Shown here in pieces: positions 2 through 17,267 of a stretch of 64,000 nt of DNA. The translations under genes were made by a program, and so were the position numbers. This DNA comes from a virus. Below the pieces are notes generated by a model. That model searched no databases. It was not told the origin of the DNA and was given only the letters and a program-made list of their open reading frames with translations. Numbering within the stretch: the stretch's first letter is position 1; every line of letters starts with the position of its first letter. The stretch is from positions 1 to 64,000 of IMG/VR virus record IMGVR_UViG_3300017698_000019; one strand, written 5' to 3'.

Positions 2-562
2 TGGAAGGCTCTGGAACGCCATAACAAAGCCGCCGACAAGGCCGCTGCGAAAGAAGCCAAGGCGAAGGCTCCACCCAAGGAGCGTGGTCTGGCGAAATCG
101 GCCGAGGCCAAGACGGTCAAGCGTCCGAACAAGAAAATGTTCTCGACCATTACGAAGACTGGCGAACACGATGGCACTCAGGGCCGGACGCATCGCTGGC
201 CGAACTACAAGGATGGCATGACTATCGTTGACGTGATCGAGACCGAAGGCACCGAGCCGTGGGACGTCTACAATTGGGCGGGCCAAGGCATCATGACCGT
301 GACCGAGCCGACGGACGAAGAGTTCACTCAGCGCAAGGCGGCATGGTACAAGAAGCACGGCCTCACCGACCCTGAGGAAGCCAAGCGTCTGAAAGCCGAA
401 GAGCGCGCGAAAGCGAAAGCTGAACGGGAAGAAGCCGCCGCTGCCAAGAAGGCCGAGCGCGAAGCTGCCAAGGAAGCCAAAGCCAAAGAACGGGCCGAGG
501 CGAAAGCTGCCAAAGAAAAGGCTGCTGCCGACAAAGCCGCTGCGAAGGCCGCTGCTGAATAA
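2..562 (+). CDS. 5'-truncated ORF; protein with Lys/Ala/Glu-rich histone H1-like tails
   Basis: The frame of track ORF 137..562 stays open to the window edge (WKALERHNKAADKAAAKEAKAKAPPKER...). The last ~55 aa are AKAKAEREEAAAAKKAEREAAKEAKAKERAEAKAAKEKAAADKAAAKAAAE. TAATG overlap with the next gene. Confidence 0.5.
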   Translation, partial: WKALERHNKAADKAAAKEAKAKAPPKERGLAKSAEAKTVKRPNKKMFSTITKTGEHDGTQGRTHRWPNYKDGMTIVDVIETEGTEPWDVYNWAGQGIMTVTEPTDEEFTQRKAAWYKKHGLTDPEEAKRLKAEERAKAKAEREEAAAAKKAEREAAKEAKAKERAEAKAAKEKAAADKAAAKAAAE

Positions 563-1473
563 TGGGCCTTGACAGAGCCAATGCGTTCTTCAGCTTTGTT
601 GAGGAACGCGAACAGATCCGTCTCCGAAAGGAGGCGGATTTGCCATATCCCTGGACCGACGACCCGATCCTCAGGGACTACAAATTCACCAATGTTCACC
701 GCCACCATGATCGTACCAGCCGTGAACTGAGAACGCAATTCTACGATAAACATCGTGGATCTTCCTGCAAGACTCTCCTCATGAACGCTGCTACGTTCCG
801 CTATTTCGGAACGTATGAGTTTGCCTCTGCTTTGGGCTGGACAGAGTTCAGAGACATGGATGACAACCATTGGGAATGGGTGAAAGAACTTGCGGAAGAC
901 AGACTGGCAAACAAAGAACGCGTCTTCACAGGCGCATACGTTATCACGAACCAAGGCATCTCCGCCCCAAAGCAAGAAGTCGTGGTTGATTATTTTCTCA
1001 AGGCTCTTCAGAAGGCAGCCTCGGAAATAGCCGGTCTGGCAATCAACACTCAAAGCTGGGAGAAAGTTGCAGATCGTATGCGACTGATCAATGGTTTCGG
1101 AGGCTCTGGCTTCATGACCAAAGAGATCCTCTTGGACACCACCTATACTAAATTCTGGGACAACATCGTCGATTACCCAGAAGACGGGCAGTTCAGTTTC
1201 CCTGCCGATTGGGATAGCTGGACACCTATTGGTCCAGGAGCGAGACGGGGTGCAGCACGGGTCAACGGAGATGATAGTGCCAAGCCTCTCAAAGAAGAAG
1301 CTGCTGGTGATGTCATTGACAATCTGTTGTTCCAGCAAGACTTGTTTCTGCCAAATGAATGGGACACACTTGCGCCTCACGATATCCAATTCCAGCTTTG
1401 TGAGTTCGACAAGTATGAACGTGTTCGCTTGGGTCAAGGACGACCACGGTCTCGCTACAAAGCACCGAAGTAA
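562..1473 (+). CDS. aGPT-Pplase-like DNA base hypermodification protein (alpha-glutamyl/putrescinyl-thymine pyrophosphorylase family, putative)
   Basis: 303 aa. The block FVEEREQIRLRKEADLPYPWTDDPILRDYKFTNVHRHHDRTS matches my recollection of the aGPT-Pplase signature. The gene is adjacent to ThyA-like and glycosyltransferase genes. Needs HMM confirmation. Confidence 0.5.
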   Translation: MGLDRANAFFSFVEEREQIRLRKEADLPYPWTDDPILRDYKFTNVHRHHDRTSRELRTQFYDKHRGSSCKTLLMNAATFRYFGTYEFASALGWTEFRDMDDNHWEWVKELAEDRLANKERVFTGAYVITNQGISAPKQEVVVDYFLKALQKAASEIAGLAINTQSWEKVADRMRLINGFGGSGFMTKEILLDTTYTKFWDNIVDYPEDGQFSFPADWDSWTPIGPGARRGAARVNGDDSAKPLKEEAAGDVIDNLLFQQDLFLPNEWDTLAPHDIQFQLCEFDKYERVRLGQGRPRSRYKAPK

Positions 1474-1498
1474 TCTGGAAGAGGGCGACAATTAGCAC

Positions 1499-1527
1499 TT
1501 GTCTTTTGCGCCCTCTGCCGCTATGCT
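1499..1527 (+). promoter_or_regulatory. sigma70-like promoter (phage cassette type)
   Basis: TTGTCT-17 nt-TATGCT, preceded by AGCAC. About 30 nt upstream of ATG 1558. Confidence 0.5.
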
Positions 1528-1557
1528 GACCTAACATACCCTTTCGGAGATAGCCCC

Positions 1558-2829
1558 ATGAAGATACTCGTCGCACTTCACAAGTGCATGGACCTCGGCG
1601 GTATTATCGACCATACCGAGCAACTCATTGGCGGTCTCCAAGACCTAGGCCATGATGTTCACCTCAAAGAACTCGTATGGGCGTTCAATGCGCCTGCTCA
1701 ACGTAAGACCGCAGACTGGAGCATCGGCCCAAGCGGTATCCCCCATCATCAAGGAAAGGGCTGGAACTTTGACCGGAAAGATCGTATTCCTTATCGTGGT
1801 GGGGCTGCTCTTAGTGGAGCATCACAAATCCTCCAGCAGTACGACCTCATCATTTGGTCTGTGCCAGTTCCAAGCAAAAACAAAGACAATCTCGGTAATG
1901 ATGACTGGCCAGAGTTGTACGACCTTCCAGAGCGCGTTAAGCAGATTGCGTTCGTCCACGATGGGAATGCAGTGAAAGGAGCAGGTCATCTGCTGGCCAT
2001 TCAGGACCGCCTCTCTGGGCTGGCCTGTGTTCACCCCTGCGCCCTCAATGGTGCCGCCTTCGCCGACGTCCCTCGCACAATGGTTGTCAATCCGCAGCTT
2101 AATCCGGTGCGTCCTTACGCCAAGTGGGAACAGAAGTCTCCCGGCTTCGTAAACATGCAGACCTTCAAGGCGTGGAAGCATGTTCATGAACTGGTCGAAG
2201 CAATCCATTACATGCAGCCAAAGGAAGCCGACGAGTTGCGTGAGATTGCTGGCTTGGGCATCGAGTATCGTTACATGACCAGCGAGGACAAGTGCAAGGA
2301 CGCTTATTTCCATGCTGATGGAGAGAAGTTCTGGGACGCTGCTCTCGAAAACGGCATGACACACCATGATTATTGGGACAAGGACCAAGTTGACAATTAT
2401 CTCAATGAAGCCCGTGTCCTTGTCGATCCGTCATGGTCCAACAACTATTCCAAAGTCGGTGGTCACTTCAACCGCGTGGCTGTAGATGCAATGATGCGAG
2501 GCTGTGTAGTCGTAGCGCGGCAGAAAGGGATGGGTTCGGAATTGTTCCAGTCCGGAGAGCATTATATCTCCATCCCTGAAGATGCTGATGCTCAAGAGTA
2601 TGCAGACCTCGTCCAGTATGCCAGCGGCATCGCACCGAAGACAGCGCAGCGCATGATTGATGCGAACCGCGAAATCCTACCCATGTTTGATCGAAAGACT
2701 GTGGCGCAACGTGTCATTGATCTGGCGCATGGTGAGATCGAAGTGGAGGAAGTCCAAGGGACTGCAACCCATGCAATGAAAACCAAAGTCGAAGATATGT
2801 TGTTCGACCATTTCGGAGTTATACTATAA
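1558..2829 (+). CDS. GT-B fold glycosyltransferase (GT4-like), candidate DNA/base glycosyltransferase
   Basis: 423 aa. MKILVALHKCMDLGGIIDHTEQLIGGLQDLGHDV is a typical GT-B N-terminus. C-terminal HFNRVAVDAMMRGCVVVARQKGMGSELFQSGEHY resembles the donor-binding region. Context: between the aGPT-Pplase-like and ThyA-like genes. Confidence 0.6.
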   Translation: MKILVALHKCMDLGGIIDHTEQLIGGLQDLGHDVHLKELVWAFNAPAQRKTADWSIGPSGIPHHQGKGWNFDRKDRIPYRGGAALSGASQILQQYDLIIWSVPVPSKNKDNLGNDDWPELYDLPERVKQIAFVHDGNAVKGAGHLLAIQDRLSGLACVHPCALNGAAFADVPRTMVVNPQLNPVRPYAKWEQKSPGFVNMQTFKAWKHVHELVEAIHYMQPKEADELREIAGLGIEYRYMTSEDKCKDAYFHADGEKFWDAALENGMTHHDYWDKDQVDNYLNEARVLVDPSWSNNYSKVGGHFNRVAVDAMMRGCVVVARQKGMGSELFQSGEHYISIPEDADAQEYADLVQYASGIAPKTAQRMIDANREILPMFDRKTVAQRVIDLAHGEIEVEEVQGTATHAMKTKVEDMLFDHFGVIL

Positions 2830-3827
2830 TGGATGTCATCACAGTTCGCAACGTCTCAGACGCCCTCGTCTTGGGCACGAAGGTTATCAATGATGTCGGG
2901 GTCCGTCGAGACAGCCGCAATGGTCCTGTCAAGGTAATGCCGATGCCAGTCACCACGATGTATGAAAGCCCAAGAGAAAGGGTCATGCTGCATCCTGAAC
3001 GCGACTGCAATCCTTATTTCCACTTCATGGAATGTCTCTGGATGCTGGCAGGTCGTCGCGACGTGGCCTGGATCTCACAGTTCAGCAAGAACATCGGCAA
3101 CTATACTGATGATGGGATCAATTTCCATGGTGCCTACGGTTATCGCTGGCGCAATCATTTCGATGTCGATGGTGGTGTTCTGGATCAACTTGGAACTATC
3201 GCAGCGTTGCTGAAAAAGAACCCTGATGATCGCCGCACTGTCCTTCAAATGTGGGACGCAAATGCTGACCTTGGTCTCGATGGCAAGGACTTCCCTTGCA
3301 ATCTGGTCATCACCTTTCGCATCAACCCCAACGGCAAATTGGACATGACTGTGTTCAATCGCAGTAACGATATGGTCTGGGGTGCTTACGGTGCCAACGC
3401 AGTTCACATGTCATTCCTGCAAGAAGTTATGGCCGCTTGGATCGGTGTGCCTGTCGGCTTCTACTGGCAGATCAGCACGAACTTCCACGCATATCTTGAC
3501 ACTCTGGCCAAGGTGGAACCCTTGCTGCACAAGCCTGATGGGAAGTCACCTTACGAACTAGGTGAGATAGAACCGTTCCCGGTGGTCGGCACTGACATCG
3601 ACACGTGGCATTCCGAACTGAATATGTTCATGGATGAAGGTCCTGTGATGGGATACACTGATCCATTCTTCAAGAAGGTGGCCGTGCCGATGCTACAGTC
3701 GTGGCAAGCCTGGAAGAACAAAGATGCTCCTGACTTCATGGACAGTGCTGTCTACTTCGCAGATCGCATTGCCGCTACCGACTGGCGTCGGGCCTGCATG
3801 GAATGGCTGGAGCGTCGGGACGTATGA
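2829..3827 (+). CDS. ThyA-family pyrimidine C5-methylene transferase (candidate dUMP hydroxymethylase or divergent thymidylate synthase)
   Basis: 332 aa. Motifs: RDCNPYFHFMECLWMLAGR, AYGYRWR, DQL..LKKNPDDRRTVLQMWD, catalytic Cys in DFPCNLVITF, and NRSNDMVWGAYGANAVH. The Asn is retained, implying uracil specificity. Confidence 0.8.
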   Translation: MDVITVRNVSDALVLGTKVINDVGVRRDSRNGPVKVMPMPVTTMYESPRERVMLHPERDCNPYFHFMECLWMLAGRRDVAWISQFSKNIGNYTDDGINFHGAYGYRWRNHFDVDGGVLDQLGTIAALLKKNPDDRRTVLQMWDANADLGLDGKDFPCNLVITFRINPNGKLDMTVFNRSNDMVWGAYGANAVHMSFLQEVMAAWIGVPVGFYWQISTNFHAYLDTLAKVEPLLHKPDGKSPYELGEIEPFPVVGTDIDTWHSELNMFMDEGPVMGYTDPFFKKVAVPMLQSWQAWKNKDAPDFMDSAVYFADRIAATDWRRACMEWLERRDV

Positions 3828-4456
3828 CTGTGGAAACAAGTCCTGAGGACTACTGCGACGTTCACGGTAAATACAAACCCTGTGAAGGTTGTGAAGAGCC
3901 AGCCGTAATCTATCCGATAGATGGCTTGGTGAACAAAGTCAAATTCACAAGGGAGGCAGCGGCGGTTCGTCGCTGTCATACCCTACCGATCATCGGTGAA
4001 TATATCGTCGGTGGTCACTCCTACAACATGCTCTCGATGCTTCGTCTGTTGCATCCAGACCCACCTATCCGCCTCGTTTGGGCTATCCAGGAACACGACG
4101 TGCCTGAACGTCTCACCGGTGATATACCTGCGCCGACCAAGTGGTTCAAGATTGTGGACAAAGGTCATCTAACCCAAGCAGAGATGTCTATCAACAAAGA
4201 AGTCTTCGGATGGGTCGCTGAACTACAGTTGACCGAAGAAGATCTCAAGTGGCTGCGCGGCTTGGATATCTTGGAACTGTATCTGTTCTGTAAAGATCAG
4301 TTGATGCTAGGCAACCAGAATGTTCTTGTGATGAAGGCTCGCATTGAGCGTTTCATCAATCGTGAGAAGCATATGTTTGCGCCAGAAGTTCTGAACTTCT
4401 ACTTCTCCCTCCAAGATCACTCGTGGCATATGTGCCCTGATCTCGGAGACGTCTAA
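3824..4456 (+). CDS. HD-domain phosphohydrolase, YfbR-like 5'-deoxynucleotidase (putative)
   Basis: ATGA overlap with the ThyA-like stop. RCHTLP..GEYIVGGHSYNMLSML and QEHDVPERLTGDIPAPTKWF resemble YfbR H...HD...D motifs. Confidence 0.6.
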   Translation: MTVETSPEDYCDVHGKYKPCEGCEEPAVIYPIDGLVNKVKFTREAAAVRRCHTLPIIGEYIVGGHSYNMLSMLRLLHPDPPIRLVWAIQEHDVPERLTGDIPAPTKWFKIVDKGHLTQAEMSINKEVFGWVAELQLTEEDLKWLRGLDILELYLFCKDQLMLGNQNVLVMKARIERFINREKHMFAPEVLNFYFSLQDHSWHMCPDLGDV

Positions 4457-13895: not shown

Positions 13896-14836
13896 AACCT
13901 ATGCTGGCTGGAAAGTATGATCCAGTAAAGGTAGAGAAGAAACTGCCTTTGCTGGGTCAACTGAAATACGATGGTATCCGAGTATTCATTCGAGATGGCG
14001 TCGCATATACTCGGAGTATAAAACCTGTTCGCTCAACAGAACTTCAATCATGGGTTGCTTGGAACAAAGACTTCCTGGAAGGCATGGATGGGGAAATAAT
14101 CTGTGGAGACCCAACGGCACAAGGATGCTTCCAAAGAACTAGCAGTTTCGTAATGAGTTACGATAAACTGGATATATTCACATTCTACGTGTTCGACAAG
14201 TGGGACGAGCCTTCCGTATTCACTGATCGTTTCGCTGTTGTTGAAGAGGTTGCTGGTCAATGGATTATGAATAGTCATGATCAACCTCGTATGGTTGCAG
14301 CAGATACTCGAGAAATGTTAACAATGGAAGATGTGAACGCATTTCATGAGGAAATGATTGCCCAAGGGCAGGAAGGTATCATCCTGCGAGATCCTCATGC
14401 TTACTACAAATTTGGACGAGGCTCGCCTGTGAAGTGTGAGTGTATCAAAATGAAAGAAGGTGGCTGGGTTGACACAGAATGCAAAATCCTCGACTTCCAC
14501 GAACAGATGCACAACGCCAATGAAGCCACGCTTGACAATCTCGGTTACACGGAACGCTCAGGGCATAAAGAGAACCTTATCGGAAAAGACACTCTCGGCG
14601 CTATTGAAGTTAGCGGAAGCTTCGAGGATGGAACTCCTTTCACGTGCAGAGTCGGAACAGGACTAGACGACGAAATCCGGCAAAAAGTCTGGGATCGCCG
14701 ACAAGACTATATTGATAAAGTCGTAAAAATGAAATATTTCACCGTCGGCATCAAAGATAAACCGAGATTTCCAACCTTCTTGGGTTTCCGTGACAAGGAT
14801 GACATGGACGCAGAGCAGTTGGATCTGTTTTCGTAA
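13892..14836 (+). CDS. ATP-dependent DNA ligase
   Basis: Motif I GQLKYDGIRV (adenylation Lys), motif IV EGIILRD, motif V-like VVKMKYF. 314 aa (T7-size). Confidence 0.85.
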   Translation: MKPMLAGKYDPVKVEKKLPLLGQLKYDGIRVFIRDGVAYTRSIKPVRSTELQSWVAWNKDFLEGMDGEIICGDPTAQGCFQRTSSFVMSYDKLDIFTFYVFDKWDEPSVFTDRFAVVEEVAGQWIMNSHDQPRMVAADTREMLTMEDVNAFHEEMIAQGQEGIILRDPHAYYKFGRGSPVKCECIKMKEGGWVDTECKILDFHEQMHNANEATLDNLGYTERSGHKENLIGKDTLGAIEVSGSFEDGTPFTCRVGTGLDDEIRQKVWDRRQDYIDKVVKMKYFTVGIKDKPRFPTFLGFRDKDDMDAEQLDLFS

Positions 14837-14873
14837 AAATCGCCGACATAGTCATATTGATTTTCGATCTGTA
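14835..14873 (+). repeat. AAAAATCGCCGACA-family repeat (intergenic copy)
   Basis: AAAAATCGCCGACATAGTCATATTGATTTTCGATCTGTAGG aligns with 13063..13094 and 29186..29226, including CGATCTGT. Confidence 0.75.
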
Positions 14874-14886
14874 GGGAATAGTCTTA

Positions 14887-15171
14887 ATGACACACGAAGA
14901 ACTAAGAGATAAACTCTTGAAAGCTATGGGTGGAAAGCCTCCTATGGCTGCTCGGGGGACGTGGTCTTACTTTCTCAAAAGTGAGAACCATTGTTATTTC
15001 ATGAACTGGGATTGGATCAAAGACCCTCGCATCGAGAAGTGGGCAGAAGATCATCCAGATCTTGAATGCTGGGACAGCGTCAATGGATTGACGATCGAGA
15101 TCTATCAACCCAGCAAAGACAAGTTCGGCCGACCGATCGGTGGATTAAAAGGCACTCAGATAGATAAATAG
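14887..15171 (+). CDS. hypothetical protein
   Basis: 94 aa track ORF, + strand. No motif recognised. Confidence 0.5.
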   Translation: MTHEELRDKLLKAMGGKPPMAARGTWSYFLKSENHCYFMNWDWIKDPRIEKWAEDHPDLECWDSVNGLTIEIYQPSKDKFGRPIGGLKGTQIDK

Positions 15172-15174
15172 AGG

Positions 15175-15203
15175 TTGTCTCGCCCCGCACCTGCGCGTAA
15201 GTT
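15175..15203 (+). promoter_or_regulatory. sigma70-like promoter (phage cassette type)
   Basis: AAATAGAGG-TTGTCT-17 nt-TAAGTT. A second perfect TATAAT lies at 15221..15226. Confidence 0.45.
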
Positions 15204-15242
15204 AAAGGCTCAGAATAACGTATAATCACACTGGATATAGAT

Positions 15243-15989
15243 ATGGCAAAACTTCATGAACTGTTGGCCGTGATGGCTGACACCACCAACGCAGCGACCG
15301 CTGTGAACAAAGAGACAGCCGCTGTCTTTGCGAAAAAGCCCGACCACTTCCGCGGTTTTTCCAAGACTGTTCGTTACTTCGATGAAGGCCGCGCTGGTGA
15401 GAACACCGACGAGACCAAACAGATGGTCACGACGGTCGCCGACAAGCTGGATCACACGTTCAAGGTGACAGGCCGTCACTACGATGCTCTCCTGCAACTG
15501 GAAGAAGCCAATGGCCGCGCCAAGGCAGACCTGATCGTTGATGGCGTGACCATCATGAAAGACGTCCCAGCGACCTTCCTCTTGGGCATGGAAAGCCGAT
15601 TGAAATCTGTCCGTGAAACAATCCTGGCAATCCCTACGCTCGAGATGTCAACCAAGTGGGAAAGCGACACCGTTGCTGGCGAAGGAATGTTCCGCGCCGA
15701 GCCTGTTGTTGCCATGAAAGGCGAGAAGCAGTTGAAATCTCGCATCCTCGTGGAACCCACGAAAGAACATCCGGCCCAAGTGGAACAGTGGACCGAAGAC
15801 GCCGCTGTTGCACGGATCGAAACAACTCATACCTCCAGCATGATCACGCCACACGCAAAGTCGGCGATGCTGATGAGGACCGACAAAATGATCTCTGCTG
15901 TGAAGAAAGCCCGCCAACGGGCGAACACTGTCACAGTTGAAGATCTCCACATTGCCGATGGTATCTTCGGATACATCATGGGCTCCTAG
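15243..15989 (+). CDS. conserved hypothetical protein
   Basis: 248 aa. MAKLHELLAVMAD...PDHFRGF...VPATFLLGMESRL...EHPAQVEQW look like conserved blocks, but I cannot name the family. Immediately upstream of the tRNA-like module. Confidence 0.65.
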   Translation: MAKLHELLAVMADTTNAATAVNKETAAVFAKKPDHFRGFSKTVRYFDEGRAGENTDETKQMVTTVADKLDHTFKVTGRHYDALLQLEEANGRAKADLIVDGVTIMKDVPATFLLGMESRLKSVRETILAIPTLEMSTKWESDTVAGEGMFRAEPVVAMKGEKQLKSRILVEPTKEHPAQVEQWTEDAAVARIETTHTSSMITPHAKSAMLMRTDKMISAVKKARQRANTVTVEDLHIADGIFGYIMGS

Positions 15990-16124
15990 ATCCCATAGGG
16001 GATAGACTGAGACTGAGACTAACCTAAGCGGTGGAAACTATCACGATAGAATACAATTCCGTGACTCATACTTGAGAGACTTATGCCCCTCAATGTGAGA
16101 ACAAGAGGAGACCAAAGATAAGCG

Positions 16125-16231
16125 GTTCTTTTTCCCGAAGGGTCGTCGGTTCGAATCCGGCCCCGCCATCCAACACCCAATCGTTGGACTGCTGGCGGGT
16201 AGCTCAGTGGTAGAGCATTCGTAATAAGAGT
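16125..16231 (+). ncRNA. circularly permuted tRNA-like RNA module (YrlA/Y-RNA-like tRNA mimic or permuted/two-piece tRNA)
   Basis: The order along the strand is CGAA (16136-39), GGGTC, the T-arm GTCGG-TTCGAAT-CCGGC (16145-61), CCCGCCA-T-CCA (16162-72) and a 6-bp linker hairpin. Then come TGGCGGG (16193-99, 7/7 complement), TA, the D-arm GCTC-AGTGGTA-GAGC (16202-16), A and TTCG (16218-21). U8, A14, G18G19, A21, G53, T54-C56, A58 and C61 equivalents are all present. There is no anticodon loop. Confidence 0.6.
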
Positions 16232-16309
16232 AACGGCACCGCACTAATCGAGGGTTCTCTGATCTGGTTGCTCTTAGATGAGCGCTTGATTTTTAATCAA
16301 AACCAAAAC

Positions 16310-16341
16310 GGGGTCGGCACATCGGGAATTGTGTCGGCCCC
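16310..16341 (+). terminator. stable hairpin, candidate terminator/3' end of the ncRNA region
   Basis: GGGGTCGGCACA-8 nt-TGTGTCGGCCCC: 12 bp including 2 G-U pairs. Weak U tract (ACTTGCTT). Confidence 0.4.
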
Positions 16342-16363
16342 ACTTGCTTAGGATAAGTAGAAC

Positions 16364-16392
16364 TTGTCTTTTGCCGCCTCTGATAGTAGTAT
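16364..16392 (+). promoter_or_regulatory. sigma70-like promoter (phage cassette type)
   Basis: GTAGAAC-TTGTCT-17 nt-TAGTAT. Confidence 0.55.
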
Positions 16393-16420
16393 AAAGGCTC
16401 AACAGTAGGAAAGGCACCAC

Positions 16421-17092
16421 ATGGATCCACCCCCTTTCAAAACAGGTGACGAGGTCAGGCTCAAAACAGGCAAGTCCAAGATCATCGTTCTGGAAGTGGA
16501 TTACTTCGAAGAAGGCGATAAGATCCCTCACTACGCGAAGCGCAATTGGGGAAATCGCTATGTCCAGGGAACAGGCCGATACAAGCCGAAGACTGGATGG
16601 TATATCCGCTTCACTTACGCGAGTTCAGTGCATTATGCAGACCACGATAGGAAGTGGCGCGAGGCAGAGGACTTTCAATTTTATCACGACCAACCCAAGA
16701 AAGAAGAGATCAGAATGGACGTACTCTACCAAACGAAAGAAGAGAAACCCCGCTTCGGTGTTCACCGTGGCGTGAATGGCAATGGCGAATTCATCCTCGA
16801 GATGAAGGGCGTTGATGCGAATTATGAAGCATTCCCTCAGGATCAGATCGAAGAAGTCCTGCCATATACTGTTGAACTGACCGAACTGCGCGTTGATCCT
16901 TCCTGCAAGCCGAAGTCGATCCATGTGCTGGCCAAGAAAGGTCAGGTCGAGAAGGCCGACGTCATGCTGGAACTCAACTCCGGCATCTTCTGGCGCGTCA
17001 CCAAGCCTGACAGCAAGTGCCGTTCACCGAGGGAAAACAAATCCAAGTGGATGAAGGTTCCTCTCACCGAAGTTATGTTCGGCGAACAGTAG
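16421..17092 (+). CDS. hypothetical protein
   Basis: 223 aa. First gene after promoter 16364. No motif recognised. Confidence 0.6.
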   Translation: MDPPPFKTGDEVRLKTGKSKIIVLEVDYFEEGDKIPHYAKRNWGNRYVQGTGRYKPKTGWYIRFTYASSVHYADHDRKWREAEDFQFYHDQPKKEEIRMDVLYQTKEEKPRFGVHRGVNGNGEFILEMKGVDANYEAFPQDQIEEVLPYTVELTELRVDPSCKPKSIHVLAKKGQVEKADVMLELNSGIFWRVTKPDSKCRSPRENKSKWMKVPLTEVMFGEQ

Positions 17093-17095
17093 AAC

Positions 17096-17124
17096 TGGTC
17101 ATAGAGTTGTCCTTGGGTTATGCT
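17096..17124 (+). promoter_or_regulatory. sigma70-like promoter (phage cassette type)
   Basis: GTAGAAC-TGGTCA-17 nt-TATGCT. Confidence 0.55.
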
Positions 17125-17150
17125 GGTTTACATAGCAAAAGGACCGCTCA

Positions 17151-17267
17151 ATGTACCTAATCAACCTAGTGCGAGCATGGGCGGCTGATAGCCTGATCCA
17201 ACTCGGTTATTCTATTGCACCTGACCATTACTTGGAAGGGATGCTCGCACCAAGCAACGAAGAGTAG
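17151..17267 (+). CDS. small ORF (38 aa), hypothetical
   Basis: ATG preceded by AAAAGGA. MYLINLVRAWAADSLIQLGYSIAPDHYLEGMLAPSNEE. Its TAG stop lies inside the AGGCTACC leader of the next gene. Below the track cutoff. Confidence 0.35.
   Translation: MYLINLVRAWAADSLIQLGYSIAPDHYLEGMLAPSNEE

What the first reader, a model, noticed from the sequence alone, without database searches (positions are those of the whole stretch)
15990..16345. Circularly permuted tRNA-like module: T-arm, 3' acceptor strand and CCA are encoded upstream of the 5' acceptor strand and D-arm, and there is no anticodon loop
**Order of elements on the + strand**
1. CGAA (16136-39).
2. Variable loop GGGTC.
3. T-arm GTCGG/TTCGAAT/CCGGC (16145-61).
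4. 3' acceptor strand CCCGCCA, then T, then CCA (16162-72).
5. A 20-nt linker.
6. 5' acceptor strand TGGCGGG (16193-99), a perfect 7/7 complement of the 3' strand.
7. U8-A9.
8. D-arm GCTC/AGTGGTA/GAGC (16202-16).
9. A26, then TTCG (16218-21), which pairs with the upstream CGAA.

**Evidence that it is a real fold**
- Every tertiary-interaction nucleotide of a class I tRNA is present (U8, A14, G18G19, A21, G53, T54, psi55, C56, A58, C61).
- The gene order is 3' half before 5' half.
- The linker forms its own helix (TCCAAC 16169-74 with GTTGGA 16183-88), which caps the acceptor stem.
- Where the anticodon loop should be, the two strands continue as an A-U-rich helix: 16125-33 pairs with 16223-31 (8 of 9 positions paired, counting 2 G-U). 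They then lead out into structured flanks: hairpin 15991-16003, GACTGA x3, hairpin TAAGAGTAAC/GTTGCTCTTA 16225-34/16268-77, TTGATT-TTT-AATCAA, and the 12-bp hairpin 16310-41.

**Interpretation**
This is the topology reported for bacterial and phage Y-RNA-like YrlA tRNA mimics, where the RNA ends emerge from the anticodon-stem position. It also resembles algal permuted tRNA genes. After RNase P and 3' processing it would give a two-piece tRNA-like complex. No Rsr/Ro60 (TROVE) gene is visible in this window, so the partner would have to be host-encoded or different. Possible roles are a decoy or sponge for tRNA-targeting defence nucleases or for tRNA-modifying and processing enzymes, or an RNP scaffold.
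Basis: partly seen in the sequence, partly recalled or inferred. Interest (0 to 1): 0.85.

Follow-up and report, generated by a model that had tools for sequence, protein, structure and literature searches.

The report
Permuted tRNA mimic paired with DUF7873
The phage really does encode a tRNA-shaped RNA with its two halves in swapped order and no anticodon loop, and this kind of RNA almost always sits just after one uncharacterised gene (DUF7873) in hundreds of phages and bacteria, which points to an undescribed protein-RNA pair.

Summary
Window 16136-16221 encodes variable loop, T arm, 3' acceptor strand, U73-CCA, a 20-nt linker, 5' acceptor strand and D arm, closed by a stem where the anticodon arm should be. 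ARAGORN calls no tRNA or tmRNA. Rfam gives only a sub-threshold YrlA match (40.9 bits against a cut-off of 69, E 1.4e-7).

Relatives show compensatory changes in the T stem, the acceptor stem, the anticodon-stem equivalent and the outer closing stem.

It fails the other YrlA criteria. The GNCGAAN0-1G Ro60-binding motif is absent, and no TROVE/Ro60 domain was found in the ORFs scanned across the roughly 66-kb phage.

Instead the element lies 145 nt downstream of a DUF7873 gene (15243-15989). A covariance model of the permuted core finds such a module on the same strand:
- 100-1000 nt after the DUF7873 gene in 69 of 75 viral contigs;
- in nearly all named phages sampled (Rhizobium, Klebsiella, Ralstonia, Gordonia, Arthrobacter, Rhodococcus, Pseudanabaena);
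- in bacterial chromosomes, often as two modules.

In the phage set, 55 of 61 distinct modules encode N73-CCA after a 7-bp acceptor stem, followed by a linker of 5-147 nt.

Most likely it is a YrlA-like tRNA mimic, cut by RNase P into a two-piece RNA with a CCA end, that works with DUF7873. The function of the pair is unknown.

The parts
15243..15989 (+). DUF7873 gene (248 aa), the candidate protein partner of the RNA
   Evidence: Pfam PF25283, E 7.6e-69. There were no hits in PHROGs, NCBIfam, PADLOC, PDB sequences or Foldseek. A permuted tRNA-like module follows this gene family in 69 of 75 viral contigs and in most bacterial loci.
15990..16003 (+). Hairpin ATCCC-ATAG-GGGAT directly after the stop codon. 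It has no U tract, so it is not an obvious terminator.
   Evidence: Invariant in the seven sequences of the window's subfamily. Similar hairpins occur in Rhizobium phage relatives.
16005..16022 (+). Three tandem hexamers: GACTGA, GACTGA, GACTAA
   Evidence: Conserved in the subfamily. Similar RAYTNA pairs lie upstream of the module in 10 of 69 phage loci, against 0 in controls, so the motif is lineage-specific. RNAalifold pairs the hexamers with 16246-16257, but without covariation.
16027..16063 (+). Variable hairpin: the sequence differs between relatives but the pairing is kept
   Evidence: RNAalifold pairs with changes on both sides (columns 45-49/81-85 and 59-62/67-70).
16065..16099 (+). 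Conserved hairpin CTCATACTTGAG / CCTCAATGTGAG with loop AGACTTATGCC
   Evidence: Nearly invariant in the subfamily, with two compensated pairs. It is unique in the window.
16122..16139 (+). 5' strand of the closing helix: outer stem GCGGT (16122-26), an A/U-rich segment, and CGAA (16136-39), which stands in for the 3' strand of the anticodon stem
   Evidence: The outer stem covaries: GCGGT/ACCGC in the window, GAGGTT/AACCTC in L003, TCGTC/GGCGA in L002. So does the inner stem: CGAA/TTCG, AATG/CATT, CAG/CTG. Each RNA's flanks pair better with their own partner than with a foreign one: -22.5 against -13.7 kcal/mol, p = 4e-13, n = 71.
16140..16161 (+). Variable loop GGGTC (16140-44) and T arm GTCGG/TTCGAAT/CCGGC (16145-61)
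   Evidence: T-stem compensation GTCGG/CCGGC to GCTGG/CCAGC. T stem 99.5% paired across 78 distinct homologues.
16162..16172 (+). 3' acceptor strand CCCGCCA (16162-68), discriminator U (16169) and CCA (16170-72)
   Evidence: The acceptor stem is 96% paired, and all 7 pairs show changes on both sides. CCA is at this position in 55 of 61 distinct phage modules, against 74 of 154 ordinary tRNA genes in the same loci (Fisher p = 4e-9).
16173..16192 (+). Linker, inferred to be excised. A local hairpin TCCAAC 16169-74 / GTTGGA 16183-88 is followed by CTGC.
   Evidence: Linker length is 5-147 nt across homologues, the sequence is A/T-rich, and the last base is U in 34 of 61. The hairpin is missing in close relative L154, so it is dispensable.
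16193..16221 (+). 5' acceptor strand TGGCGGG (16193-99), U8-A9, D arm GCTC/AGTGGTA/GAGC (16202-16), A26, and TTCG (16218-21), which pairs with CGAA
   Evidence: U1:A72 in the window becomes A1:U72 in L153 and L155.
16222..16242 (+). 3' strand of the closing helix: AATAAGA pairs with TCTTTTT, then an asymmetric internal loop, then ACCGC 16238-42
16270..16301 (+). Two hairpins that resemble a D arm (GCTC 16270-73 / GAGC 16280-83) and a tRNA-Lys(UUU)-like anticodon arm (CTTGA 16285-89, loop TTTTTAA, TCAAA 16297-16301). No T arm or acceptor stem accompanies them.
   Evidence: Both are kept by compensatory change in L154: CCAG/CTGG and TTGAC/GTCAA. In L002, L001, L007 and L136 the same position holds a complete tRNA with anticodon TCT, TAT, TGA or TGT.
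16310..16350 (+). 12-bp G+C-rich hairpin (16310-41) followed by ACTTGCTTA. This is the probable 3' end (terminator) of the non-coding transcript.
   Evidence: The hairpin is conserved, with several compensated pairs. The same hairpin plus RCTTGCTTTT follows the RNA cluster in Rhizobium phage relatives.

Best explanation
Window 16122-16242 is the core of a roughly 350-nt non-coding RNA (about 15990-16350). The RNA belongs to a large family of circularly permuted tRNA mimics that are genetically coupled to the DUF7873 protein encoded immediately upstream.

**Shown**
- The core folds as a tRNA elbow (T arm, D arm, 7-bp acceptor stem). The anticodon arm is replaced by a long irregular helix formed by the RNA's own 5' and 3' flanks.
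- The fold is maintained by compensatory substitutions.
- The module follows DUF7873 on the same strand in phages of Proteobacteria, Actinobacteria and Cyanobacteria, and in bacterial chromosomes. No other gene is conserved in the neighbourhood.

**Inferred**
- The RNA is transcribed with or just after DUF7873.
- Host RNase P cuts between 16192 and 16193. Exonucleases then trim the linker back to the encoded CCA at 16172.
- The product is a two-piece tRNA mimic held together by the acceptor stem, the elbow contacts and the closing helix. It would have a free N73-CCA 3' end, as shown experimentally for M. smegmatis YrlA.
- DUF7873 then binds this RNA, or acts on it, as a dedicated partner. Ro60 plays that role for classical YrlA, and SmpB for tmRNA.

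**Speculative**
The particle engages a host factor that recognises the acceptor/elbow half of tRNA. Candidates are a defence nuclease or nucleotidyltransferase directed at tRNA, or RNA repair and quality-control machinery.
For: **Sequence and fold:**

**Covariation in close relatives:**
- T stem;
- acceptor stem (U1:A72 to A1:U72);
- anticodon-stem equivalent (CGAA/TTCG, AATG/CATT, CAG/CTG);
- outer stem (GCGGT/ACCGC, GAGGTT/AACCTC, TCGTC/GGCGA).

**Family-wide pairing:** 93% of cells are paired, against 60% in shuffles and 38-47% in slid controls. 20 of 21 pairs show changes on both sides.

**Flank pairing:** specific to each locus, p = 4e-13.

**Coupling to DUF7873:**
- Model R1 hits lie downstream on the same strand in most of the 14 sampled named-phage and IMG/VR loci; three of them are weak (L144 32.6 bits, L138 21.2, L145 10.7).
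- The same holds in 69 of 75 IMG/VR loci and in most of 54 bacterial loci.
- No other neighbouring gene is conserved.
- The window itself has no tRNA genes, so the coupling is not a by-product of tRNA arrays.

**Processing:**
- 7-bp acceptor stem, with CCA in 55 of 61 modules.
- Linker of 5-147 nt that ends in U in 34 of 61.
- The linker hairpin is lost in L154.
- Precedent: M. smegmatis YrlA is cleaved by RNase P in vivo and in vitro and acquires CCA (PMC4201824).

**Not Ro60-dependent:** no TROVE domain was found in the phage ORFs scanned and there is no Ro60-binding motif.
Against: - There are no expression, processing or binding data. Every step after transcription is inference.
- DUF7873 has no recognisable fold or motif and a near-neutral pI of 6.5. 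RNA binding is inferred from gene linkage alone.
- The encoded CCA is not universal. Bacterial chromosomal copies mostly cap the 7-bp stem with a 6-9-nt loop, and only 21 of 79 have CCA. A free CCA end may therefore not be required across the family.
- About 13 other permuted modules in phage tRNA arrays had no DUF7873 gene within the roughly 5-kb stretches fetched.
- Model R1 was trained partly on sequences chosen for acceptor complementarity. The alignments are fitted to the model. Tandem tRNA genes give false hits of up to about 42 bits.
Confidence: 0.55

Rival explanations
1. It is an ordinary YrlA Y RNA that works with a host-encoded Ro60 (Rsr) protein. DUF7873 is an unrelated neighbour.
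For: The only Rfam family that matches is YrlA, aligned end to end. YrlA RNAs are known in phages (PMC4201824). Ro60 occurs in many of the phyla that also carry DUF7873.
Against: - The score of 40.9 bits is well below the cut-off of 69, and it comes from the tRNA-like core only.
- The GNCGAAN0-1G motif is absent and is not enriched in the family: 10 of 69 loci against 7 of 69 controls.
- Published YrlA genes lie within 4 kb of rsr on the same strand. Here no TROVE domain was found in the ORFs scanned across the whole phage.
- The link to DUF7873 holds across phyla.
Confidence: 0.1
2. It is a protein-independent decoy or sponge. The RNA alone titrates a host factor that recognises the acceptor/T-arm half of tRNA, such as a defence nucleotidyltransferase or nuclease aimed at the 3' end, RNase P, or the CCA-adding or modification enzymes. 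DUF7873 has a separate job.
For: - The elbow and acceptor stem are canonical and the CCA is conserved.
- Several permuted modules sit in phage tRNA arrays with no DUF7873 gene nearby.
- The neighbouring tRNA or anticodon-arm unit changes anticodon between close relatives (TTT, TCT, TAT, TGA, TGT). This looks like an arms race over tRNA.
Against: - The cassette also sits in bacterial chromosomes between housekeeping genes, where an anti-defence role is not obvious.
- The near-obligate linkage to DUF7873, with no other conserved neighbour, argues for a joint function.
Confidence: 0.15
3. It is a cis-acting processing or stability element. The tRNA-like fold serves only as an RNase P 'punctuation' site that defines and protects the 3' end of the DUF7873 mRNA. 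Mammalian MALAT1/mascRNA and viral 3' tRNA-like structures work in this way.
For: - The position is constant, 100-1000 nt downstream of DUF7873 on the same strand (median 161 nt).
- No terminator-like site lies between the gene and the module in the window.
- The 7-bp stem, the CCA and U at position -1 fit RNase P recognition.
Against: - A punctuation signal would not need a conserved D arm and elbow, a covarying closing helix, a second module (29 of 50 bacterial loci), or about 130 nt of conserved upstream structure.
- It would also not be specific to a single gene family.
Confidence: 0.12
4. It is not a functional unit: debris of two tandem tRNA genes, an attachment site carrying tRNA fragments, or a misassembly.
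For: Tandem tRNA genes can mimic the T-arm-then-D-arm order and do score with YrlA-type models. PMC4201824 warns of this, and I saw it myself at up to about 42 bits.
Against: - There is no 5' half upstream and no 3' half downstream, and ARAGORN finds no tRNA in the window.
- The acceptor strands are 7 of 7 complementary and covary. So do the stems that join the two permuted halves.
- The same arrangement appears in independent assemblies and in cultured phage genomes.
- No integrase was found in the ORFs scanned.
Confidence: 0.02

Closest known systems
YrlA (Y RNA-like A; Rfam RF02553), the Ro60-bound bacterial and phage tRNA mimic (Chen et al. 2014, PMC4201824; crystal structure 6CU1, bioRxiv 10.1101/312249)
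   Same: - Same permuted order: closing stem, variable region, T arm, acceptor-like stem-loop, D arm, closing stem.
- Same conserved T-loop and D-arm sequences and tertiary-pair positions.
- The RNA ends leave at the anticodon-stem position.
- Often two RNAs per locus (YrlA and YrlB there, two modules here).
- It is the only Rfam family that matches.
   Different: - The score is below the Rfam cut-off (36-43 bits against 69).
- There is no GNCGAAN0-1G Ro60-binding motif.
- It is not next to a TROVE gene. It is linked to DUF7873 instead, and lies downstream of the protein gene rather than upstream.
- It has a full 7-bp acceptor stem plus encoded N73-CCA and a long variable linker. Most YrlA RNAs have a shorter, closed acceptor stem and no free CCA.
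Mycobacterium smegmatis YrlA (the RNase P-processed YrlA)
   Same: A 7-bp acceptor stem. In M. smegmatis the RNA is cut by RNase P in vivo and in vitro, trimmed and given CCA, which yields two halves that stay with the protein partner. The anatomy here predicts the same maturation. Bacterial DUF7873-linked modules likewise keep C74 in 65 of 79 cases.
   Different: That RNA is bound by Rsr and is encoded upstream of rsr. Its CCA is completed after transcription, whereas the window encodes the full CCA.
Two-piece tmRNA from circularly permuted ssrA genes (alpha-proteobacteria, some cyanobacteria and beta-proteobacteria), with its partner SmpB
   Same: A permuted gene in which the T arm and 3' acceptor-CCA precede the 5' acceptor strand. 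An intervening segment is removed to give two base-paired pieces. The anticodon arm is replaced by a long helix. A small dedicated protein partner stands in for the missing part. This comparison rests on my own knowledge of tmRNA.
   Different: - There is no G3:U70 alanine identity pair (G3:C70 here).
- The D arm is a true D arm, unlike the degenerate tmRNA D loop.
- There is no tag reading frame and there are no pseudoknots.
- ARAGORN and the Rfam tmRNA models do not call it.
Circularly permuted tRNA genes of the red alga Cyanidioschyzon merolae
   Same: The 3' half is encoded before the 5' half, and the acceptor strands are joined by a linker that is removed. This comparison rests on my own knowledge.
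   Different: Those genes yield complete tRNAs with an anticodon loop, through a circular intermediate made by the eukaryotic/archaeal splicing machinery. Here no anticodon loop exists or can be regenerated.

Membership tests
YrlA (Rfam RF02553; Chen et al. 2014) | tRNA-like domain with T arm, acceptor-like stem-loop and D arm in permuted order, closed by pairing of the 5' and 3' regions | tested here: met
   Covariation.
YrlA (Rfam RF02553; Chen et al. 2014) | Reaches the Rfam gathering score (69 bits) | tested here: not met
   40.9 bits in the window, and no hit in gathering mode. Relatives score 36-43 bits.
YrlA (Rfam RF02553; Chen et al. 2014) | GNCGAAN0-1G motif near the 5' end (proposed Ro60/Rsr contact) | tested here: not met
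   No match in 15990-16350. Across the family the motif is in 10 of 69 upstream flanks, against 7 of 69 control stretches.
YrlA (Rfam RF02553; Chen et al. 2014) | Encoded within about 4 kb of a TROVE-domain (Ro60/Rsr) gene on the same strand | tested here: not met
   Pfam scans of 30 ORFs of 94-1050 aa, which include all the longest + strand ORFs, found no TROVE domain. Locus L308 closes the roughly 66-kb genome and adds only a helicase, a ribonucleotide reductase and a 238-aa protein.
YrlA (Rfam RF02553; Chen et al. 2014) | Bound by Ro60/Rsr in cells | not testable with these tools
   Needs immunoprecipitation. The host is unknown.
Canonical tRNA | Contiguous cloverleaf with an anticodon arm, detectable by ARAGORN or Rfam RF00005 | tested here: not met
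   ARAGORN finds 0 genes in the window. There is no tRNA hit in Rfam, even at E up to 10, over 15850-16500.
Two-piece (permuted) tmRNA | G3:U70 pair, degenerate D loop, pseudoknots and a tag reading frame; detected by ARAGORN or the Rfam alpha/beta/cyano tmRNA models | tested here: not met
   G3:C70. No tmRNA is called. The downstream sequence is not conserved as coding sequence.
Algal-type permuted tRNA gene | Joining the ends regenerates a complete anticodon stem-loop | tested here: not met
   The ends continue as a long irregular helix with a covarying outer stem. No 7-nt anticodon loop can be formed.
DUF7873-linked permuted tRNA-like RNA (grouping proposed here) | Permuted T arm, 7-bp acceptor stem and D arm within about 1 kb downstream of a DUF7873 gene, on the same strand | tested here: met
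   In the window the module starts 145 nt after the stop codon. The same holds in 69 of 75 viral loci and most bacterial loci.
Ro60/TROVE relationship of DUF7873 | DUF7873 is a divergent TROVE/vWA protein | tested here: not met
   The AlphaFold2 model (pLDDT 90) has no Foldseek match with E below 1e-3 in PDB or BFVD. A profile search of PDB sequences is empty. Pfam gives only DUF7873.

The most novel reading that the evidence does not exclude
DUF7873 and the permuted tRNA-like RNA(s) encoded just after it form a previously undescribed, Ro60-independent ribonucleoprotein or enzyme-substrate system. It is spread through phages of at least three bacterial phyla and through bacterial chromosomes. 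Its RNA matures into a split tRNA mimic with a free CCA end. That end could be charged, extended, or used as bait for tRNA-directed host factors.
Probability: 0.45. Interest if true: 0.85.

Novelty: new variant of a known kind. Interest (0 to 1): 0.78.

Why it matters
Since 2014, bacterial Y-like tRNA mimics have been known as Ro60 partners. What their tRNA-like domain is for remains open: the structure paper suggests the conserved D and T stems contact 'an unknown factor'.

This work finds the same RNA architecture systematically coupled to a different, uncharacterised protein. The coupling is seen in hundreds of phage contigs, in cultured phages of Rhizobium, Klebsiella, Ralstonia, Gordonia, Arthrobacter, Rhodococcus and Pseudanabaena, and in the chromosomes of Streptomyces, Nostoc/Anabaena, planctomycetes and myxobacteria.

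If the coupling is functional:
- it gives DUF7873 its first functional lead;
- it defines an RNA class that Rfam does not hold as a family of its own;
- it offers tractable systems (plaque-forming phages, Streptomyces, Anabaena) for asking what an anticodon-less tRNA with a CCA end does during infection;
- it warns annotators that these modules are invisible to tRNA finders, or are mis-called. Phage FBKp24 annotates a 'tRNA-Sup-TTA' that overlaps one.

Tried and rejected
- **ARAGORN and Rfam gathering mode** found nothing in the window.
- **Megablast of 14800-17200** against 50,697 phage records gave no match.
- **Exact 18-mer scan of viral contigs:** three of the eight hits (L009, L010, L013) were chance matches inside unrelated sequence.
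- **Function of DUF7873** was sought in PHROGs, NCBIfam, PADLOC, PDB sequences (single sequence and profile), and Foldseek against PDB and BFVD. None gave a significant match.
- **Literature:** no paper mentions DUF7873, and none was found on phage permuted tRNA-like RNAs outside the Ro60 context. The library covers open-access papers only.
- **Reverse association:** about 13 permuted modules from the generic scan have no DUF7873 gene within the stretch fetched. None of them reaches the YrlA cut-off either.
- **Flank motifs:** I first read 16270-16301 as a decaying tRNA remnant. Covariation in L154 shows it is maintained.
- **Generalising the flank motifs** (RAYTNA repeats, UUGCUC) to the whole family failed. 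They are subfamily-specific.
- **Conserved third gene:** none was found around bacterial DUF7873 loci.
- **tmRNA, attP and tandem-tRNA readings** were rejected (see rivals and membership tests).
Full report
**1. The observation**

- CGAA, then variable loop GGGTC;
- T arm GTCGG/TTCGAAT/CCGGC;
- 3' acceptor strand CCCGCCA, then U, then CCA;
- a 20-nt linker;
- 5' acceptor strand TGGCGGG, 7 of 7 complementary;
- U8-A9, D arm GCTC/AGTGGTA/GAGC, A26, then TTCG.

All the named tertiary-interaction positions are present, including the G15:C48 Levitt pair.

ARAGORN finds no tRNA or tmRNA in the 64-kb window. Rfam in gathering mode finds nothing. With relaxed thresholds, the only meaningful match over 15850-16500 is YrlA (RF02553). 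It aligns end to end at 16122-16245 with 40.9 bits (cut-off 69) and E 1.4e-7, with a 25-nt insertion in the loop that caps the acceptor stem.

The minimum-free-energy fold of 16115-16250 gives the T arm, the acceptor stem extended by the linker hairpin, the D arm, and an outer stem GCGGU/ACCGC. Its energy z-score is only -2.0, so thermodynamics alone would not be convincing.

**2. Where it sits**

The window is most of a tailed-phage genome. Pfam scans found:
- family A DNA polymerase, a primase/helicase and an ATP-dependent ligase;
- a 5-hmdU DNA kinase, a glycosyltransferase and a thymidylate-synthase-like protein;
- terminase, portal, capsid, tape measure and baseplate proteins.

A Logan contig (L308) joins the two ends of the window. 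It shows that the part outside the window holds only the rest of a PIF1-like helicase, a ribonucleotide reductase and a 238-aa protein. None of the ORFs scanned has a TROVE domain, so the phage appears to have no Ro60.

The gene that ends 145 nt upstream of the module (15243-15989) is a full-length member of Pfam DUF7873, E 7.6e-69.

**3. Close relatives and covariation**

Viral contigs whose DUF7873 protein is 76-80% identical carry the same element at the same place. Together with the window they give seven distinct versions.

The core from the T arm to the D arm is almost invariant, while the flanks diverge. The changes that do occur are compensatory:

| Helix | Window | Relatives |
|---|---|---|
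| T stem | GTCGG/CCGGC | GCTGG/CCAGC |
| Acceptor pair 1:72 | U1:A72 | A1:U72 (L153, L155) |
| Anticodon-stem equivalent | CGAA/TTCG | AATG/CATT; CAG/CTG |
| Outer stem | GCGGT/ACCGC | GAGGTT/AACCTC; TCGTC/GGCGA |

RNAalifold on the whole intergenic region predicts 86 pairs, 31 of them with a double-sided change. It also supports:
- a variable hairpin at 16027-63;
- a conserved hairpin at 16065-99;
- two hairpins at 16270-16301;
- a 12-bp terminator-like hairpin at 16310-41.

The linker hairpin (16169-74/16183-88) is missing in L154, so it is dispensable.

**4. A much larger family tied to DUF7873**

A generic scan of viral contigs for a T loop followed within 25-55 nt by a class I D arm returned mostly tandem tRNAs. 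It also returned about 15 permuted modules with 6-7 complementary acceptor pairs and no ARAGORN call. One lies in cultured Rhizobium phage RHph_Y1_11, again just after its DUF7873 gene.

I built a covariance model, R1, from 18 such cores and searched around DUF7873 genes found by tblastn. In each of the 12 named phages sampled, an unannotated gap of about 280-1100 nt follows the gene. In most of them R1 finds a strong permuted module there, on the same strand:

| Phage | R1 score (bits) |
|---|---|
| Klebsiella FBKp24 | 71.5 |
| Klebsiella KpLz-2_45 | 68.7 |
| Rhizobium RHph_Y1_11 | 65 |
| Rhizobium RHph_TM30 | 64.9 |
| Ralstonia phiRSL1 | 59.2 |
| Rhizobium RHph_TM16 | 57.4 |
| Arthrobacter Mimi | 53 |
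| Gordonia GodonK | 51 |
| Rhodococcus NiceHouse | 46.9 |
| Gordonia Keelan | 45.2 |

The hits were weaker in Pseudanabaena phage Pam2 (32.6 bits), Vibrio phage K481 (21.2 bits) and the Microcoleus phage (10.7 bits).

Of 75 further IMG/VR loci chosen only by similarity to DUF7873, 69 have an R1 hit with E below 1e-4 starting 100-1000 nt after the gene on the same strand (median distance 161 nt). Only a handful of hits lie upstream of the gene.

Across 78 distinct homologues:
- 93% of cells form standard pairs, against 60% in shuffles and 38-47% in slid controls;
- 20 of 21 pairs show changes on both sides.

These alignments are fitted to the model, and tandem tRNAs give false hits of up to about 42 bits. 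Even so, the window has no tRNA at all, and many bacterial loci have none either.

**5. DUF7873 and the cassette in bacteria**

The protein family is large: 1527 clusters with E of 1e-3 or better.

A scan of one genome per species found at least 578 loci. They include Streptomyces, Actinomadura, Micromonospora, Plantactinospora, Nostoc/Anabaena, Planctomycetota, Myxococcota, Chloroflexota and others. R1 again finds modules 80-350 nt downstream, and 29 of 50 loci have two.

No other gene is conserved in the neighbourhood. Two contexts stand out:
- In Anabaena azotica the cassette lies between a transporter gene and a homocysteine-biosynthesis gene, not in a prophage.
- In Plantactinospora it sits inside a 24-25-gene tRNA array.

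The AlphaFold2 model is confident (pLDDT 90, pTM 0.60). It shows long helices and beta sheets but has no significant Foldseek match in PDB or BFVD. Neither a sequence nor a profile search of PDB gives a significant match. PHROGs, NCBIfam and PADLOC are silent. No paper in the library mentions the family.

**6. Anatomy that bears on mechanism**

In the phage set, 61 distinct modules all have a 7-bp acceptor stem:

| Feature | Counts |
|---|---|
| Positions 74-76 | CCA 55, CTA 4, CCT 2 |
| Discriminator | U 25, G 20, A 9, C 7 |
| Linker after CCA | 5-147 nt, A/T-rich |
| Last linker base | U in 34 of 61 |
| Last three linker bases | TAT in 25 of 61 |

By a lenient test, ordinary tRNA genes in the same loci encode CCA in 74 of 154 cases (Fisher p = 4e-9).

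A conserved 7-bp stem and N73-CCA, next to a linker free to vary in length and sequence, is what a pre-tRNA-like substrate looks like. RNase P would cut 5' of position +1, and exonucleases would trim the linker back to CCA.

This has been shown for M. smegmatis YrlA. The authors attribute its cleavage to its 7-bp stem (PMC4201824; restated).

The 45-nt flanks on either side of each module pair with each other far better than with the flanks of other loci (-22.5 against -13.7 kcal/mol, p = 4e-13). The two pieces would therefore stay together.

One caveat applies. Bacterial chromosomal copies usually cap the stem with a 6-9-nt loop. They keep C74 (65 of 79) but have the full CCA in only 21 of 79. 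The encoded CCA is therefore a feature of the phage clade that includes the window. In M. smegmatis the CA is added after cleavage.

**7. Comparison with known families**

The RNA works like, and is probably homologous in its core to, YrlA. It fails three of the four testable YrlA criteria:
- the Rfam score is below the cut-off;
- the GNCGAAN0-1G motif is absent from the window and not enriched in the family;
- it is not adjacent to rsr.

It is not a tRNA, not a tmRNA (G3:C70, a true D arm, no tag reading frame), and not an algal-type permuted tRNA gene (no anticodon loop can be regenerated).

I therefore file it as a new variant of the YrlA kind, defined by its linkage to DUF7873.

**8. What it does**

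This is unknown.

The best-supported model is a processed two-piece tRNA mimic that functions with DUF7873. The gene linkage is shown. Processing and binding are inferred. The target is speculative.

One hint is that the unit following the module differs between close relatives:
- a tRNA-Lys(UUU)-like D arm plus anticodon arm in the window, kept by covariation;
- complete tRNAs with anticodons UCU, UAU, UGA or UGU in L002, RHph_Y1_11, L007 and RHph_TM16.

That pattern would fit a cassette engaged in a conflict over tRNA. The presence of the cassette in ordinary chromosomal contexts argues that its basic function is not purely anti-defence.

**9. Limits**

- There are no expression or biochemical data.
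- The host is unknown.
- Model R1 and the alignments derived from it carry selection bias.
- The IMG/VR and GTDB samples are the top 80 loci by similarity, not random samples.
- The literature search covers open-access papers only.

Noticed in passing
window 16270-16301: Two hairpins resemble the D arm and the anticodon arm of tRNA-Lys(UUU) (CTTGA-TTTTTAA-TCAAA), with no T arm or acceptor stem. Both are kept by compensatory changes in relative L154. Related phages have a whole tRNA at this spot, with anticodon TCT, TAT, TGA or TGT.
   Followed up: partly
window 15990-16120: About 130 nt of conserved non-coding sequence lies upstream of the module: a hairpin right after the stop codon, three GACTGA-type hexamers, a variable hairpin, and a conserved hairpin with loop AGACTTATGCC. 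Similar hexamer pairs occur in only 10 of 69 phage loci, so this part is lineage-specific and remains unexplained.
   Followed up: partly
window 562-3827: A gene set for thymidine hypermodification: 5-hmdU DNA kinase (562-1473), glycosyltransferase (1558-2829) and a thymidylate-synthase-like protein (2829-3827). The phage DNA probably carries a modified base.
   Followed up: no
L147 (Klebsiella phage vB_KpM_FBKp24, NC_061421.1) 4018-4154: The record annotates a 'tRNA-Sup-TTA' at locus positions 4018-4097. It overlaps the permuted module at 4060-4154 (71.5 bits), so it is probably a mis-call. A second permuted module with a Leu-like D arm (GCGGAATTGGTAGACGC) lies about 150 nt upstream.
   Followed up: partly
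L142, L146, L143, L141, L144 and bacterial loci L250, L261, L262, L252: Actinobacterial and cyanobacterial phages and chromosomes usually carry two permuted modules in tandem after DUF7873, about 150 nt apart. In Pam2 both modules have the same acceptor sequence, CTCGCCC/GGGCGAG.
   Followed up: partly
L242 and L239 (Plantactinospora genomes): Here DUF7873 and its modules sit in the middle of arrays of 24-25 tRNA genes. In Anabaena azotica (L252) the cassette stands alone between housekeeping genes.
   Followed up: partly
L027, L029, L056, L058, L063, L072, L076, L095, L098, L099, L107, L114, L126: Other permuted tRNA-like modules lie in phage tRNA arrays with no DUF7873 gene in the stretch fetched, and they score below the Rfam YrlA cut-off. 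Their protein partners, if any, are unknown. L058 also carries a GOLLD RNA and L027 a tmRNA.
   Followed up: partly
window 16364-16392: A promoter-like site lies upstream of the next gene (16421-17092): TTGTCT, a 17-nt spacer, then TAGTAT. It is conserved as TTGTCA-N17-TACTAT in L003. The simple scan did not call it.
   Followed up: no
L308 (Logan contig SRR5917985_713): This contig joins the end and the start of the window. The genome is therefore about 66 kb and circularly permuted or terminally redundant. The segment missing from the window encodes a ribonucleotide reductase large subunit.
   Followed up: yes
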